The notes: generated by a model from the letters alone, not told the origin. 64,000 nt of DNA from Thermoplasmata archaeon (GCA_022750335.1 JAKIVX010000002.1:53442-117441), one strand, 5' to 3'. Shown: positions 54,639-60,543, counted from the first letter of the stretch. Numbers and translations are program-made.

Positions 54639-55163
54639 TCAGTCGTCCGCGCGGAACCGGTAGAACCAACGTCCGTCGCCGATGTCGAACGATTCTAGGC
54701 GAACCGACTGTCCGATCCGGAGCTCGGTCCACGCCCGACCTTCGATGCGACCGAACAGGCGGAGCGGGACGCCGTCCAGGTCGACAAGGCCGACCGCGAA
54801 CGGAACGTCGCTTTCCATCCCCAGGGGCGCGCCTCCGAGGACCGCGCTGAACGCGTAGATCCGACCCCGTTCGGGAAGGTCGACCCAATCAACGTCCTCG
54901 GTGTGGCAACCGGGACATGCGGTTCGGGGCGGCCAGAGGAGCACTCCTTCCTGGACACAACGGGTCGTGGAGACCCGGCCTTCTTTGAGCCGCTCGAAGA
55001 AGCGTGACAGTCGAGTCTGGTCGGCCGTCTCGAGGGGGAAGAAGTCCAGCAGGAACGGCTTCTTTTCCCGGGGACGGGATGTCGGATCCGGGCTGGGGAC
55101 CGGCTCCGGTGTCGGTGCCGCGAGGGTGGGTGTGGGCCGTCGGGGGCGGGCCTCAGCGCTCAT
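54639..55163 (-). CDS. DUF35 OB-fold/zinc-ribbon protein (thiolase/HMG-CoA-synthase complex scaffold-type)
   Basis: Start overlaps the thiolase stop (ATGA). ...TTRCVQEGVLLWPPRTACPGC... rubredoxin-like Zn ribbon followed by an OB fold ...GRIYAFSAV...FAVGLVDLDGVPLRLFGRI.... Pro-rich N-terminal tail. Confidence 0.75.
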   Translation of the reverse strand: MSAEARPRRPTPTLAAPTPEPVPSPDPTSRPREKKPFLLDFFPLETADQTRLSRFFERLKEGRVSTTRCVQEGVLLWPPRTACPGCHTEDVDWVDLPERGRIYAFSAVLGGAPLGMESDVPFAVGLVDLDGVPLRLFGRIEGRAWTELRIGQSVRLESFDIGDGRWFYRFRADD

Positions 55164-56344
55164 GCGGCCCCTCCCCGCTGGTAGATCATCACCGAGTGGA
55201 CGTTTGCGCTGCCCGACAGGTTGTGGACGAGGCCCCATTCGGGGTCCGGTACGGTCCGAGCCGCCGGGGCTGCGCCCGACATCTGGCGGTAGACCTCCAC
55301 AGCCTGGGCGATCCCGGTCGCCCCGAGTGGATGGCCACATCCTAGCAGACCGCCGCGGGGGTTCACGACGAGTTTCCCGCCGATATCCCCTTGACCCTCC
55401 GAAGCGAACGGGCCGCCTTTGCCGGGCTCGGCCCATCCGAACATCTCGTACTCGACGATCTCGGAGATCGTGAAGCAGTCGTGGATCTCGGCGAAGTCGA
55501 CGTCGTCCGGTCCGATACCGGCCCGTCCGAACGCTTCTCGGGCGGCGTGTTTGAGGCCGACCCAATCGGTCAGGGACCCCGCGTTGGCGAGGTTGTGGAA
55601 ATCCGAGTACTGTCCCGTTCCCCGGATCCAGGCGGGCCGGTCCGTGTACGCCCGCGCTCGGTCGGCCGCGACCAACACGACCGCGGCGGCCCCGTCGGTC
55701 ATGGAAGAGCAGTCACCGAGCCGCAACGGAGGGGCGACGAGGGGGAGGCGCGCGAGCTTCTCGCGGGAGAAGGTCTTCTCATAAAACTGCGCTTCGGGGT
55801 TCGAGTTCGCGAATCGGTGGTTCTTCTCGGAGACAGCAGCGAGCTGGTCGTCCGTGGTCCCATACTCGAGCTGGTGGCGCTGGGCCACCATCGCGAAGAA
55901 GGGAGGGGCGGTGGCCCCGTGCGGACCATCCCAGGCCCGGTCCATGACGCTCGCCATGGCCGTGTTGGCTTCGGCCATCGACGGTAAGTTCATCTTCTCG
56001 ACTCCGACGGCGACCGCCACGTCCGAAAGGCCCGACGCGATCGCGGCGTAGGCCGACCGGATCGCGGACTGGCCGGACGCACACGCGAGCTCGGTGCGCT
56101 GGATGATGCGGTGCGGACGGAGGCCCATTTGTTCGGCGGCGAACGGCGCCACGTGGGATTGGAAGGCGAACCGCTCTGGTTCCGCGGCCCCCAAGAAGAG
56201 CGAATCGACGTCCTCGGACCGGAGTTCGGGGACCGACCGGAACAGCGCGACACCGATCTCCTGGGCGAGTTCGGCCCAAGTCGATGCGCGGACCCCGAAC
56301 TTGGTCGTCGCCCCCCCCACCAGGGCCACGTCCCGGACGTTCAT
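55160..56344 (-). CDS. Thiolase, SCP2/archaeal type (acetyl-CoA acetyltransferase-like; DUF35 partner)
   Basis: ...ELACASGQSAI... catalytic Cys context of SCP-x type thiolases. C-terminal ...GCGHPLGATG... and ...NLSGSANVHS.... 394 aa. Confidence 0.8.
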   Translation of the reverse strand: MNVRDVALVGGATTKFGVRASTWAELAQEIGVALFRSVPELRSEDVDSLFLGAAEPERFAFQSHVAPFAAEQMGLRPHRIIQRTELACASGQSAIRSAYAAIASGLSDVAVAVGVEKMNLPSMAEANTAMASVMDRAWDGPHGATAPPFFAMVAQRHQLEYGTTDDQLAAVSEKNHRFANSNPEAQFYEKTFSREKLARLPLVAPPLRLGDCSSMTDGAAAVVLVAADRARAYTDRPAWIRGTGQYSDFHNLANAGSLTDWVGLKHAAREAFGRAGIGPDDVDFAEIHDCFTISEIVEYEMFGWAEPGKGGPFASEGQGDIGGKLVVNPRGGLLGCGHPLGATGIAQAVEVYRQMSGAAPAARTVPDPEWGLVHNLSGSANVHSVMIYQRGGAA

Positions 56345-59287: not shown

Positions 59288-60543
59288 GCGCTCACCGCCC
59301 GGATGCCCACGACGTCCACCATCGTCCAGAAATCCTCGTCCGAAAGCCCCGGTCGCTCGTAGAGACGGCGGTACTCGAGCAGGAAGTGATGCAGGTCCTC
59401 CTTCGAACGAGCTTCGGTTTCCGTCTTGACCCGCTGGAGGAGGTCGAGCAGCATCGGGTCAGTCGCAGTCATGCCGCGTTCCTTCAGTTTCTCGACGAGC
59501 GCCGCTTTGCCGCTGTGCTTTCCGAGAATCATGTGCCGTTCGCGTCCCACGACTTCCGGTTGCAGCGGTTCGTAAGTGAGCGTGTGGGCGAGGATGCCGT
59601 GCGTGTGGATCCCGGCCTCGTGGGAGAACGCGTTGTACCCGACGAGGGCCTTGTTGGCCGCGATCGGGATGCCGGAGATCTCTTCCACGAGCTGGGAGAG
59701 CTCGTACAGCTTCTCGGTCTTGATCCCGGTGTGCACCCCGTAGAGCGATTCGAGGCAGAGGACCACTTCTTCGAGCGAGGCGTTGCCGGCGCGCTCGCCC
59801 AACCCGTTCACGCACACATGGGGGGCGATGGCCCCGCACTCGAGGGCCGTCAGGGTGTTGGCCGTCGCGAGGCCAAAATCGTTGTGGCAGTGGACGGAGA
59901 GGTCCCGCGGCTGGATCCGCCGGCGGAACTCCTGGAGGTACCAACGGAAGGTCAGGGGGGTCATGATCCCGACCGTGTCGGAAACGACCAGGCGGTCGGC
60001 CCCGGCCTCCTGGACCTCCCGGTAAAGGCGCTCGACAAAATCAAACGGGGCTCGTACAGTGTCCTCCGTGACAAAGGCGACGTGCAGTCCTGCCTCCTTC
60101 GCTTGGCGTACCGATCGGAGGCTGGCCTGGAGGACCTCTTCCTGGGTCATCTTGAGCTTGAACCGAAGATGGACATTGCTCGCAGCGACGAAGATCGCGA
60201 TGTGGGTCGCGCCGCTCGCGATCACCGCGTCCACGTCGGCCGGCACGGTGCGGGCGGCCGCCAGGACCTTGGCTTTGAGTCCGGCGTGGGCCAGGAGGTG
60301 CACCGCGCGGGCCTCCTTGTCGGAGACCACCGGGATGCCGGCGTTGAGGATCGCGACCCCGACGTCCGACAGGAGCTCCGCGATCCGGAGCTTCTCCTCC
60401 GGCGAAAAATGGACCCCAGGAGTCTGCTCCCCATCCCGGAGCGTCTCGTCCCAGATCACGGGATGTTCGGGAAGATGCCGCTCCGAAGCGGTCGCCGCGT
60501 GGTAGTCCTCGACCAACGCCGGCTCGGTCATCGACGCTTCCAC
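59284..60543 (-). CDS. leuA: 2-isopropylmalate synthase / citramalate or homocitrate synthase-family enzyme (short form, no LeuA C-terminal regulatory domain)
   Basis: DRE-TIM metallolyase ...IWDETLRDGEQTPGV..., ...HCHNDFGLATANTLTALE..., ...HTHGIL.... About 415 aa, so CimA or homocitrate-synthase-like. Confidence 0.8.
   Translation of the reverse strand: MEASMTEPALVEDYHAATASERHLPEHPVIWDETLRDGEQTPGVHFSPEEKLRIAELLSDVGVAILNAGIPVVSDKEARAVHLLAHAGLKAKVLAAARTVPADVDAVIASGATHIAIFVAASNVHLRFKLKMTQEEVLQASLRSVRQAKEAGLHVAFVTEDTVRAPFDFVERLYREVQEAGADRLVVSDTVGIMTPLTFRWYLQEFRRRIQPRDLSVHCHNDFGLATANTLTALECGAIAPHVCVNGLGERAGNASLEEVVLCLESLYGVHTGIKTEKLYELSQLVEEISGIPIAANKALVGYNAFSHEAGIHTHGILAHTLTYEPLQPEVVGRERHMILGKHSGKAALVEKLKERGMTATDPMLLDLLQRVKTETEARSKEDLHHFLLEYRRLYERPGLSDEDFWTMVDVVGIRAVSA

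What the first reader, a model, noticed from the sequence alone, without database searches (positions are those of the whole stretch)
54639..60543. The leuA/cimA-leuC-leuD-leuB operon runs without a break into an SCP2-type thiolase and its DUF35 partner, with no HMG-CoA synthase
Six minus-strand genes have overlapping stops and starts: leuA/leuC, leuD/leuB (4 nt each), leuB/thiolase (4 nt) and thiolase/DUF35 (ATGA). In archaea the thiolase-DUF35 pair normally brackets HMG-CoA synthase for mevalonate biosynthesis. Here it is instead attached to a 2-oxoacid chain-elongation module of isopropylmalate, citramalate or homocitrate type. The short LeuA-like enzyme has no regulatory domain. This suggests either a hybrid pathway, in which elongated 2-oxoacids or acyl-CoAs feed a Claisen condensation, or an unusual operon merger.
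Basis: partly seen in the sequence, partly recalled or inferred. Interest (0 to 1): 0.65.

Follow-up and report, generated by a model that had tools for sequence, protein, structure and literature searches.

The report
Leucine operon carrying a spare thiolase pair
In a whole order of soil archaea, the leucine/isoleucine-type genes leuA-leuC-leuD-leuB form one operon with a second, catalytically intact thiolase/DUF35 pair. The usual HMG-CoA synthase-thiolase-DUF35 operon lies about 20 kb away in relatives, so this is an operon merger and not a mevalonate module that lost its synthase.

Summary
Six minus-strand genes (leuA/cimA-like, leuC, leuD, leuB, SCP2-type thiolase, DUF35) are packed with four ATGA overlaps and one 8-nt gap. 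The 64-kb window has no HMG-CoA synthase (HMGCS).

The organism belongs to the Thermoplasmata order Lutacidiplasmatales. The same operon occurs in every one of about 85 related loci whose contig reaches it. The leuB/thiolase overlap is kept in 84 of 85.

The premise that this is the mevalonate pair without its synthase does not hold. In two relatives, the same contig carries a canonical HTH-HMGCS-thiolase-DUF35 operon 19-21 kb upstream of leuA. In the window that position lies past the 64-kb end.

The leu-linked thiolase is a paralogue, 37% identical to the HMGCS-linked copy. It falls outside the HMGCS-linked clade (NJ bootstrap 100/100). Its nearest outside relatives (42-47% identical) sit in beta-oxidation or acetoacetyl-CoA clusters, never beside leu genes.

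One unexpected result: the HMGCS-linked thiolase of this order has lost its catalytic Cys/His residues but is still conserved. The leu-linked copy keeps all of them. It may therefore be a real acetoacetyl-CoA supplier. That step is inferred, not shown.

Verdict: a lineage-specific operon merger of moderate interest.

The parts
60556..60565 (-). BRE/TATA-like box AAAGGTTAAT, the putative single promoter of the operon. Its centre is about 27 nt upstream of the leuA ATG, which implies a leaderless or nearly leaderless mRNA.
   Evidence: Read from the sequence. Conserved in the aligned OFOR-leuA intergenic regions of 15 loci. Promoter function is inferred, not shown.
59284..60531 (-). leuA/cimA-like 2-oxoacid:acetyl-CoA condensing enzyme, short form without a regulatory domain. 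The ORF as listed starts at GTG 60543; the likely start is ATG 60531.
   Evidence: HMGL-like 237 bits plus HCS_D2. Best NCBIfam models are IPMS / LEU1_arch, below their cut-offs. PDB: IPMS 3RMJ 5e-72 and S. acidocaldarius HCS 6KTQ 2e-71. Called as 415 aa in relatives.
58004..59287 (-). leuC, large subunit of the isopropylmalate/citramalate-type isomerase. It overlaps the leuA stop by 4 nt (ATGA).
   Evidence: Aconitase 361 bits. NF001614 543 bits, above its cut-off. Junction.
57471..57995 (-). leuD, small subunit of the isomerase. An 8-nt gap with GAGGAGG lies upstream.
   Evidence: TIGR02087 174 bits, above its cut-off. Best PDB match is M. jannaschii isopropylmalate/citramalate isomerase 3VBA (3e-46), against homoaconitase 2PKP (7e-29). 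The substrate loop reads YLTI, with no Arg.
56341..57474 (-). leuB, a 3-isopropylmalate dehydrogenase-type enzyme. ATGA overlaps on both sides.
   Evidence: Iso_dh 281 bits. Best NCBIfam is NF002898 IPMDH. The best PDB hits are isopropylmalate dehydrogenases, with a tartrate dehydrogenase third (3FLK); homoisocitrate dehydrogenases rank lower.
55160..56344 (-). DUF35-associated (SCP2-type) ketothiolase, a paralogue of the mevalonate thiolase. All catalytic motifs are intact (ACASG, HDCF, GHPLGATG).
   Evidence: It lies outside the HMGCS-linked clade. It is 77-89% identical across the order.
54639..55163 (-). DUF35 partner protein (zinc ribbon plus OB fold). It has a Pro-rich N-terminal tail, an invariant PFLLDFFPLE motif and a 3-Cys ribbon.
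54575..54582 (-). TATTTATA box of the next gene (giant STT3/AglB, 47927-54526). It marks the downstream end of the operon.
   Evidence: One of only five A/T-rich 8-mers in 54500-60700. The DUF35-to-STT3 gap is 46-216 nt in almost all relatives.
60692..63353 (+). Neighbour, not part of the operon. Divergently transcribed two-subunit 2-oxoacid:ferredoxin oxidoreductase (alpha 60692-62485, beta 62487-63353). Its own TATA (TTAAATA) is at 60629-60635.
   Evidence: Pfam POR / POR_N / TPP_enzyme_C. TIGR03710 587 bits. Synteny is conserved in nearly all loci that reach it, 60 of 62. The ATG at 60692 gives 597 aa, as in relatives.

Best explanation
The six genes are one conserved operon of the soil archaeal order Lutacidiplasmatales. 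It arose by joining an isopropylmalate/citramalate-type leuA-leuC-leuD-leuB module to a second, paralogous ketothiolase/DUF35 pair.

Transcription probably starts at a TATA-like box about 27 nt upstream of the leuA ATG. It then runs through all six genes, and the ATGA overlaps couple their translation.

The leu enzymes add one carbon to a 2-oxoacid (2-oxoisovalerate and/or pyruvate), using acetyl-CoA, for leucine and/or isoleucine synthesis.

By analogy with characterised archaeal pairs, the thiolase is held in a complex with its DUF35 partner. It catalyses the reversible reaction acetyl-CoA + acetyl/acyl-CoA = 3-ketoacyl-CoA + CoA.

It is not the mevalonate thiolase stripped of its synthase. 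In relatives, a canonical HTH-HMGCS-thiolase-DUF35 operon lies 19-21 kb upstream of leuA, just beyond this window.

That HMGCS-linked thiolase has lost its catalytic Cys and His in this order, yet it stays conserved. I therefore infer that it is a scaffold. I further infer that the leu-linked intact pair, perhaps together with the classic AtoB-type thiolase at 28985-30190, makes the acetoacetyl-CoA that HMGCS uses.

On this reading the link to leu is co-expression of acetyl-CoA-consuming anabolic condensations next to an acetyl-CoA-producing oxidoreductase. It is not a shared pathway.

Shown:
- the operon structure and its conservation;
- paralogy of the thiolase;
- the canonical cluster elsewhere, in relatives;
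- the status of the catalytic motifs.

Inferred:
- co-transcription;
- the substrates;
- the acetoacetyl-CoA supply role.
For: Structure and overlaps.

Conservation: about 85 loci carry the same order. The leuB/thiolase -4 overlap is in 84/85. The operon is also kept in a relative whose thiolase is 69% identical.

Transcription signals: there is no A/T-rich box in the 500 nt before the thiolase start. A TATA-like box before leuA is conserved.

Canonical cluster on the same contig as the leu block:
- DATJNY010000006.1: L040 and L209.
- DAHUXZ010000004.1: L069 and L216.

Paralogy:
- The two thiolases are 37% identical.
- The HMGCS-linked copy scores 366 bits against 6ESQ_A; the window thiolase scores 216 bits.
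- NJ tree of 108 sequences: the HMGCS-linked clade excludes the window type in 100/100 bootstraps.

Outside relatives at 42-47% identity sit next to ETF-ACAD, HCDH/ECH, CoA-transferase or 3HCDH genes.

Catalytic motifs:
- Intact in the window thiolase.
- Lost in all 13 HMGCS-linked copies of the order.
- Motif definitions (CxS, HDxF, GHx) come from PMC12960953.
- The dead copy is still 75% identical between two divergent genomes.
- The HMGCS itself is intact: NF003274 537 bits, and the E-C-H-N motifs are present.

leu type: LeuD loop and PDB ranking; LeuB ranking.
Against: - The canonical cluster is shown in relatives, not in the window's own genome. That genome's longer contig could not be retrieved.
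- No transcript data exist.
- Neighbours unrelated to the operon (tiaS, STT3) are also syntenic across the order. Conservation of gene order alone therefore does not prove functional coupling.
- The nearest outside relatives of the thiolase sit in degradative-looking clusters. That fits a catabolic role at least as well as a biosynthetic one.
- An intact AtoB-type thiolase in the window could supply acetoacetyl-CoA by itself.
- LeuA substrate specificity (IPMS, CimA or HCS) is unresolved.
- The tree is distance-based only.
Confidence: 0.55

Rival explanations
1. Degradative thiolase riding in the leu operon. The pair cleaves 3-ketoacyl-CoA or acetoacetyl-CoA in fatty-acid or ketone catabolism. 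Its position behind leuB is a neutral, inherited accident with no functional meaning.
For: The nearest non-order homologues sit in ETF-ACAD, HCDH/ECH, hydantoinase + CoA-transferase, or 3HCDH clusters. Lutacidiplasmatales are predicted fatty-acid degraders (PMC9287336). The whole neighbourhood is syntenic across the order, so order-wide conservation is weak evidence of coupling.
Against: A catabolic enzyme translationally coupled to a biosynthetic operon in 84/85 genomes would be oddly regulated. The thiolase is among the most conserved genes of the block, at 77-89%. The window already has a classic thiolase and an acyl-CoA dehydrogenase elsewhere. Both characterised archaeal KT/DUF35 pairs work in the condensing direction (bioRxiv 10.1101/2024.07.05.601840).
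Confidence: 0.22
2. Hybrid pathway. LeuACDB elongates a 2-oxoacid. The adjacent divergent 2-oxoacid:ferredoxin oxidoreductase converts the product to an acyl-CoA such as isovaleryl- or propionyl-CoA. The thiolase/DUF35 then condenses that acyl-CoA with acetyl-CoA to make branched or odd-chain 3-ketoacyl-CoA.
For: The oxidoreductase, the leu module and the thiolase/DUF35 are contiguous in nearly every locus that reaches them, including the relative at 69% identity. All are 2-oxoacid or acyl-CoA enzymes. The LeuA-like enzyme lacks a feedback domain.
Against: No homologue outside the order links this thiolase type to leu genes. The leu enzymes look like ordinary isopropylmalate/citramalate types. 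The operon has no reductase, dehydratase or other downstream enzyme. The oxidoreductase has its own divergent promoter.
Confidence: 0.1
3. [quoted passage not shown] The pair is the condensing module of an ACP-independent fatty-acid synthesis complex of the Sulfolobus Saci_1121/1120 type, recruiting a ketoacyl-CoA reductase and a MaoC dehydratase encoded elsewhere.
For: The KT/DUF35 pair Saci_1121/1120 scaffolds such a complex. Homologues of the pathway genes are reported in Thermoplasmatota (bioRxiv 10.1101/2024.07.05.601840). An SDR sits next to related pairs in L214 and L219.
Against: There is no SDR, MaoC or enoyl-CoA reductase gene in or next to the operon. I had no Saci_1121/1120 sequences to test orthology.
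Confidence: 0.1
4. It is the one and only mevalonate thiolase/DUF35 pair, moved away from a solitary HMGCS. This is the premise of the finding.
For: The closest solved structure is the M. thermolithotrophicus mevalonate thiolase 6ESQ_A, at 7e-63. The window has no HMGCS.
Against: Relatives carry a complete HMGCS-thiolase-DUF35 operon on the same contig. That thiolase is the true orthologue of 6ESQ_A: 366 against 216 bits, and 497 against 328 bits on NF053570. The tree separates the two types in 100/100 bootstraps.
Confidence: 0.03

Closest known systems
[quoted passage not shown] 2018, as cited in PMC12960953)
   Same: Same thiolase subfamily (Thiolase_N + Thiolase_C_1; CxS, HDxF and GHx motifs) with a DUF35 gene immediately downstream. 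It is the best PDB match.
   Different: There is no HMGCS upstream; leuB occupies that position. The window thiolase lies outside the HMGCS-linked clade and is only 37-43% identical to HMGCS-linked thiolases. The DUF35 has an extra N-terminal tail and a 3-Cys ribbon. The true orthologue of this complex sits about 20 kb away in relatives and has a catalytically dead thiolase.
Sulfolobus acidocaldarius KT/DUF35 pair Saci_1121/1120 of the archaeal fatty-acid synthase complex (bioRxiv 10.1101/2024.07.05.601840)
   Same: It is a second, non-mevalonate KT/DUF35 pair in an archaeon that also has the mevalonate pair. Having several pairs per genome is a known pattern.
   Different: That pair lies in a fatty-acid gene cluster with reductase and dehydratase partners. 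This one lies in a leu operon with none. Orthology was not tested because no sequences were held.
Archaeal leuA/cimA-leuCD-leuB modules (for example M. jannaschii isopropylmalate/citramalate isomerase MJ1277, PDB 3VBA)
   Same: Same four enzyme families. LeuD is closest to the isopropylmalate/citramalate isomerase, and LeuB to isopropylmalate dehydrogenases.
   Different: The synthase has no regulatory domain, and its specificity is unresolved. LeuB is closer to bacterial-type IPMDH than to the archaeal LEU3_arch model. The operon continues into two non-leu genes.
'Other AACT homologs' of archaea (Hoshino and Gaucher 2018, PMC6107057)
   Same: That paper notes that archaea usually have several AACT homologues in distinct clades of unknown function. 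The window thiolase is one of these.
   Different: That paper reports that many of the 'other' homologues lack the catalytic motif. Here it is the reverse: the 'other' copy is intact and the HMGCS-linked copy is degenerate.

Membership tests
Mevalonate-pathway archaeal thiolase (thiolase subunit of the HMGCS complex) | Encoded next to HMG-CoA synthase (canonical order HMGCS, thiolase, DUF35) | tested here: not met
   leuB lies upstream. No HMGCS was found among the 46 window ORFs scanned. The canonical order is seen in L087, L088, L209 and L216, and at every scanned metagenome locus where a full-length thiolase could be read (58 of them).
Mevalonate-pathway archaeal thiolase (thiolase subunit of the HMGCS complex) | Falls in the clade of HMGCS-linked thiolases | tested here: not met
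   NJ tree of 108 sequences: a split holding all HMGCS-linked thiolases and excluding the window type appears in 100/100 bootstraps. Scores are 216 bits against 6ESQ_A, compared with 366 bits for the HMGCS-linked copy.
Mevalonate-pathway archaeal thiolase (thiolase subunit of the HMGCS complex) | Physical complex with HMGCS through DUF35, with a shared CoA site | not testable with these tools
   This needs co-purification or a structure.
DUF35-associated SCP2-type ketothiolase pair (KT/DUF35) | Thiolase_N + Thiolase_C_1 fold with catalytic CxS, HDxF and GHx motifs | tested here: met
   Pfam. ACASG, HDCF and GHPLGATG are seen in the alignment. Motif definitions come from PMC12960953.
DUF35-associated SCP2-type ketothiolase pair (KT/DUF35) | DUF35 gene (rubredoxin-like zinc ribbon + OB fold) immediately downstream | tested here: met
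   zf-ChsH2 25.9 bits and OB_ChsH2_C 51.7 bits, both above their cut-offs. ATGA overlap with the thiolase. The ribbon has 3 Cys plus a following His instead of 4 Cys.
Isopropylmalate / citramalate / homocitrate synthase family (LeuA, CimA, HCS) | HMGL-like TIM barrel plus post-barrel subdomain; RDGEQ-type active-site motif | tested here: met
   PF00682 237 bits and PF22617 79.5 bits. The sequence contains LRDGEQTPGV.
Isopropylmalate / citramalate / homocitrate synthase family (LeuA, CimA, HCS) | Assignment to one substrate class (IPMS, CimA or HCS) | tested here: inconclusive
   All equivalog models score below their cut-offs. IPMS-type models score best (446 bits), nifV HCS 370 and CimA 195. 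In the PDB, IPMS and Sulfolobus HCS tie.
Isopropylmalate / citramalate / homocitrate synthase family (LeuA, CimA, HCS) | C-terminal LeuA_dimer regulatory domain (feedback-regulated long form) | tested here: not met
   No PF08502 hit. The protein is 415-419 aa.
Isopropylmalate/citramalate isomerase (LeuCD) as opposed to homoaconitase | Small-subunit substrate loop without the Arg of homoaconitase (YLRT); closest to characterised IPMI | tested here: met
   The loop is YLTI. 3VBA (IPM/citramalate isomerase) scores 3e-46 and 2PKP (homoaconitase) 7e-29. The meaning of the loop rests on my own knowledge of the M. jannaschii enzymes.
Single transcription unit (operon) | No room for a promoter or terminator between genes; one upstream promoter | tested here: met
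   Four 4-nt overlaps and one 8-nt gap. Conserved across the order. The only TATA-like boxes are at the two ends.
Single transcription unit (operon) | One mRNA covering all six genes | not testable with these tools
   This needs RNA-seq or RT-PCR.

The most novel reading that the evidence does not exclude
Division of labour in archaeal isoprenoid synthesis. In Lutacidiplasmatales, and perhaps more widely in Thermoplasmatota, the HMGCS complex keeps a catalytically dead thiolase purely as a scaffold. The acetoacetyl-CoA is made by a separate, intact thiolase/DUF35 pair that has been wired into the leucine operon. The first step of membrane-lipid synthesis would then be co-expressed with branched-chain amino-acid synthesis.
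Probability: 0.3. Interest if true: 0.65.

Novelty: new variant of a known kind. Interest (0 to 1): 0.4.

Why it matters
As a gene-order fact it is modest. Leu operons and multiple thiolase/DUF35 pairs per archaeal genome are both known, and this is a new, order-wide fusion of the two.

It matters more for what it exposed. In this order the thiolase that sits with HMG-CoA synthase has lost its catalytic residues. Some other thiolase must then start isoprenoid lipid synthesis, and the leu-linked pair is the most similar intact candidate.

This gives a concrete, testable question about how the first step of archaeal membrane-lipid synthesis is organised in Thermoplasmatota. It also warns against annotating every HMGCS-adjacent thiolase as an active acetyl-CoA acetyltransferase.

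Tried and rejected
- The window's own longer contig could not be fetched. The exact-match look-up returned only a 6.5-kb contig. No HMGCS hit carried the 131,129-bp contig length listed for the window thiolase. The canonical cluster is therefore shown only in relatives.
- tRNA and Rfam scans of the window found nothing.
- The sigma-70 promoter / intrinsic terminator scan is not suited to archaea and gave counts at shuffle level. I used A/T-rich box scanning and intergenic alignment instead.
- The supplementary tables of the Lutacidiplasmatales paper do not list HMGCS or leu KOs in the parts held. Vogeli et al. 2018 is not held.
- An assembly chimera is rejected. The same junctions occur in about 85 independent assemblies.
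- A lysine or coenzyme-B type homocitrate module is disfavoured by the LeuD loop, the LeuD PDB ranking and the LeuB ranking. LeuA alone cannot settle it.
- The 702-aa minus-strand ORF at 60629-62737 is rejected as a shadow of the plus-strand oxidoreductase alpha gene.
- The genome-collection scan with the thiolase reached only this order (77-89% identity). More distant relatives had to come from the representatives search.
- No structure prediction was run. It would not have separated the hypotheses.

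
Full report
**What is in the sequence**

The window is 66-70% G+C. On the minus strand, between 54639 and 60543, lie six ORFs. Pfam and NCBIfam assign them as follows:
- a LeuA/CimA/HCS-type synthase (HMGL-like + HCS_D2, no regulatory domain);
- LeuC;
- LeuD;
- LeuB;
- a thiolase of the Thiolase_C_1/SCP2 type;
- a DUF35 protein (zinc ribbon + OB fold).

There are ATGA overlaps at leuA/leuC, leuD/leuB, leuB/thiolase and thiolase/DUF35. An 8-nt spacer containing GAGGAGG separates leuC from leuD.

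I called 55 likely genes in the window by third-position G+C and scanned 46 of them against Pfam. No HMG-CoA synthase was found.

**Organism and conservation**

The thiolase is identical or nearly identical to proteins from 'Thermoplasmata archaeon' MAGs. A scan of one genome per species returned 80 loci. All are from Thermoplasmata/Lutacidiplasmatales MAGs from soil and peat, with the thiolase 77-89% identical. This order is described in PMC9287336: about 69% G+C, about 2.1 Mb, heterotrophs predicted to use fatty acids.

In every locus whose contig extends far enough, the order from leuA on is the same, and the oxidoreductase genes precede leuA in 60 of the 62 loci that reach them: oxidoreductase beta and alpha (divergent), then leuA, leuC, leuD, leuB, thiolase, DUF35, then a giant STT3. 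The 4-nt overlaps are kept as follows:
- leuB/thiolase in 84 of 85 loci;
- leuA/leuC in 66 of 70;
- leuD/leuB in 78 of 80.

The gap before STT3 is 46-216 nt in almost all loci. A more distant relative, with the thiolase 69% identical, keeps the six-gene operon although a Na+/H+ exchanger has been inserted before STT3.

**Transcription signals**

These are inferred. The leuA-oxidoreductase intergenic region contains two boxes conserved in 15 aligned loci:
- AAAGGTTAAT (60556-60565, minus strand), centred about 27 nt before an ATG at 60531;
- TTAAATA (60629-60635, plus strand), before the oxidoreductase ATG at 60692.

This makes leuA 415 aa and the oxidoreductase alpha subunit 597 aa, as called in relatives.

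Between 54500 and 60700 there are only five A/T-rich 8-mers, and none lies in the 500 nt before the thiolase start. The next clear box (TATTTATA, 54575-54582) precedes STT3. The six genes therefore look like one unit bounded by two promoters. No transcript data are available.

**Where the HMG-CoA synthase is**

I obtained archaeal HMGCS sequences from the neighbours of the M. jannaschii and Methanothermobacter thiolases. There the order is HMGCS, thiolase, then (in M. jannaschii) DUF35.

A high-G+C DNA pattern for the conserved FHQPNGK motif pulled 80 readable metagenome loci. A thiolase lies next to the HMGCS in 68 of them; the other twelve show no adjacent thiolase because the contig ends or the match is partial. 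That thiolase is only 30-43% identical to the window thiolase (37-43% for full-length matches).

A group of these HMGCS from acid soils and peat belongs to clusters named 'Thermoplasmata archaeon'. One member sits on contig DATJNY010000006.1 (81,299 bp). This is the same contig that carries a leu-thiolase block (locus L040). There, HTH-HMGCS(350 aa)-thiolase(389 aa)-DUF35(162 aa) lies about 19 kb upstream of leuA.

A second, more divergent genome (DAHUXZ010000004.1, 98,820 bp; L069 and L216) shows the same at about 21 kb. Eight further genomes have HMGCS and leu-linked thiolase on contigs of identical length.

In window coordinates this position would be near 80 kb, past the 64-kb end. I could not retrieve the window's own longer contig. 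For this very genome the cluster is therefore inferred from synteny.

**The leu-linked thiolase is a paralogue**

- It is 37% identical to the HMGCS-linked thiolase of a relative in the same order. The two DUF35 proteins are 29% identical.
- Against the solved M. thermolithotrophicus mevalonate thiolase (6ESQ_A), the HMGCS-linked copy scores 366 bits and the window thiolase 216 bits.
- On NCBIfam NF053570 the scores are 497 and 328 bits.
- An exhaustive search of 1.84 billion representatives shows the window type (69% identity or more) only in this lineage. The next relatives are 47-40% identical.
[quoted passage not shown] None is beside leu genes.
- In a neighbour-joining tree of 108 sequences, all HMGCS-linked thiolases form a group that excludes the window type in 100 of 100 bootstraps. 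The window type is monophyletic (100) and joins the group just described (69).

It was a canonical cluster elsewhere, with this thiolase in a beta-oxidation-like clade.

**An unexpected result**

PMC12960953 defines archaeal ACAT catalytic motifs as CxS, HDxF and GHx.
- The window thiolase has ACASG, HDCF and GHPLGATG.
- All 13 HMGCS-linked thiolases of the Lutacidiplasmatales type read GGGASG (Cys to Gly), (H/N/D)D(A/S/G)(Y/F) (Cys lost) and G(R/Q/L/C/Y)P (His lost).
- This copy is nevertheless 75% identical between two divergent genomes. For comparison, HMGCS is 86%, the leu-linked thiolase 81% and LeuB 76% identical. It is therefore a conserved pseudoenzyme and not a decaying gene.
- The HMGCS keeps its catalytic motifs and passes its NCBIfam cut-off.

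The same loss is common in HMGCS loci whose synthase starts with GIVSYG. Fourteen of 21 have none of the three residues, and one such cluster is named Methanomassiliicoccales. A Korarchaeota locus also shows the loss. In contrast, 21 of 25 other loci are intact.

Some other thiolase must therefore make acetoacetyl-CoA in these organisms. The candidates in the window are the leu-linked pair and a classic AtoB/PhaA-type thiolase at 28985-30190 with intact Cys/His/Cys.

**The leu module**

- LeuD is closest to the M. jannaschii isopropylmalate/citramalate isomerase small subunit (3VBA, 3e-46), not to the homoaconitase subunit (2PKP, 7e-29). Its substrate loop reads YLTI. The isomerase has YLVY and the homoaconitase YLRT.
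- LeuB ranks isopropylmalate dehydrogenases above homoisocitrate dehydrogenases.
- LeuA is unresolved. IPMS-type models score best but below their cut-offs, and IPMS and a Sulfolobus homocitrate synthase tie in the PDB.

The module is most simply a leucine and/or isoleucine (citramalate route) 2-oxoacid elongation set with a feedback-insensitive short synthase.

**Interpretation**

Shown:
- an order-wide operon that merges a leu module with a paralogous, catalytically intact thiolase/DUF35 pair;
- a canonical HMGCS operon about 20 kb away in relatives.

Inferred, at about one chance in three:
- the intact pair supplies acetoacetyl-CoA to an HMGCS complex whose own thiolase is only a scaffold;
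- the link with leu is co-expression of acetyl-CoA-consuming condensations, next to an oxidoreductase that produces acetyl-CoA.

Rivals:
- a degradative thiolase that merely rides in the operon;
- a Sulfolobus-type fatty-acid synthase core (bioRxiv 10.1101/2024.07.05.601840).

Archaea are already known to carry several AACT homologues of unknown function (PMC6107057) and several KT/DUF35 pairs. The kind is therefore known. The operon context and the intact/dead split are the new elements.

Noticed in passing
L209:11056-12225; L216:7056-8225; also L127, L155, L104, L167, L145, L130, L142, L093, L147, L095 (thiolase next to HMGCS): The HMGCS-adjacent thiolase of Lutacidiplasmatales has lost the catalytic Cys of CxS, the Cys of HDxF and the His of GHx. 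It is still 75% identical between divergent genomes, so it looks like a conserved pseudo-thiolase in the mevalonate operon.
   Followed up: partly
Metagenome loci L089-L168 (for example L129, L101, L115, L168, L107): Loss of thiolase catalytic residues next to HMGCS is widespread. Fourteen of 21 loci whose HMGCS starts with GIVSYG have none of the three residues. One such cluster is named Methanomassiliicoccales. A Korarchaeota locus also shows the loss. In contrast, 21 of 25 other loci are intact. One group carries a Cys two positions downstream (GGGACGA).
   Followed up: partly
window 28985-30190 (+): A classic AtoB/PhaA-type thiolase (Thiolase_N + Thiolase_C) with intact Cys93, GHPIG His and Cys385. 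It stands alone between a PCNA gene and an aquaporin-family (MIP) gene. It is an alternative source of acetoacetyl-CoA.
   Followed up: partly
window 54639-55163 (-) and the same gene in L002-L086 and L210: The leu-linked DUF35 has a variable Pro-rich N-terminal tail of about 45 aa, followed by an invariant PFLLDFFPLE motif. Its zinc ribbon has three Cys plus a following His, instead of the canonical CxxC...CxxC. The motif could be a docking site.
   Followed up: partly
window 60532-60691: The intergenic region between leuA and the divergent oxidoreductase holds two conserved TATA-like boxes: AAAGGTTAAT at 60556-60565 (minus) and TTAAATA at 60629-60635 (plus). They imply corrected starts: leuA ATG at 60531 and oxidoreductase alpha ATG at 60692.
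   Followed up: yes
window 47927-54526 (-): A giant 2199-aa protein with an N-terminal STT3/AglB oligosaccharyltransferase domain and repeated CarboxypepD_reg domains. It is conserved downstream of the operon across the order but diverges fast (44-77% identity).
   Followed up: no
window 60629-62737 (-): A 702-aa ORF antisense to the oxidoreductase alpha gene. It is a high-G+C shadow ORF and not a gene; relatives call only the plus-strand gene.
   Followed up: yes
L003 and L005 (ENA contigs of 1.84 and 1.48 Mb): These long contigs show fused or split genes (leuA-leuC as 842 aa, a truncated leuB, STT3 in pieces). The same genes are intact in short-read assemblies of the same organisms. These are probably frameshift errors in the assemblies.
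   Followed up: no
window 7259-10023 (-) and 31984-35404 (-): Other CoA-ester metabolism genes in the window: an acyl-CoA dehydrogenase next to a succinate-dehydrogenase-like flavoprotein, both subunits of an ADP-forming succinyl-CoA ligase, and CoaBC.
   Followed up: no
L219:1159-9342: In the closest sister of the window-type thiolase (44% identity), the thiolase/DUF35 pair follows hydantoinase A/B and CoA-transferase A/B genes and precedes an SDR. This looks like a ketone-to-acetoacetyl-CoA route.
   Followed up: no
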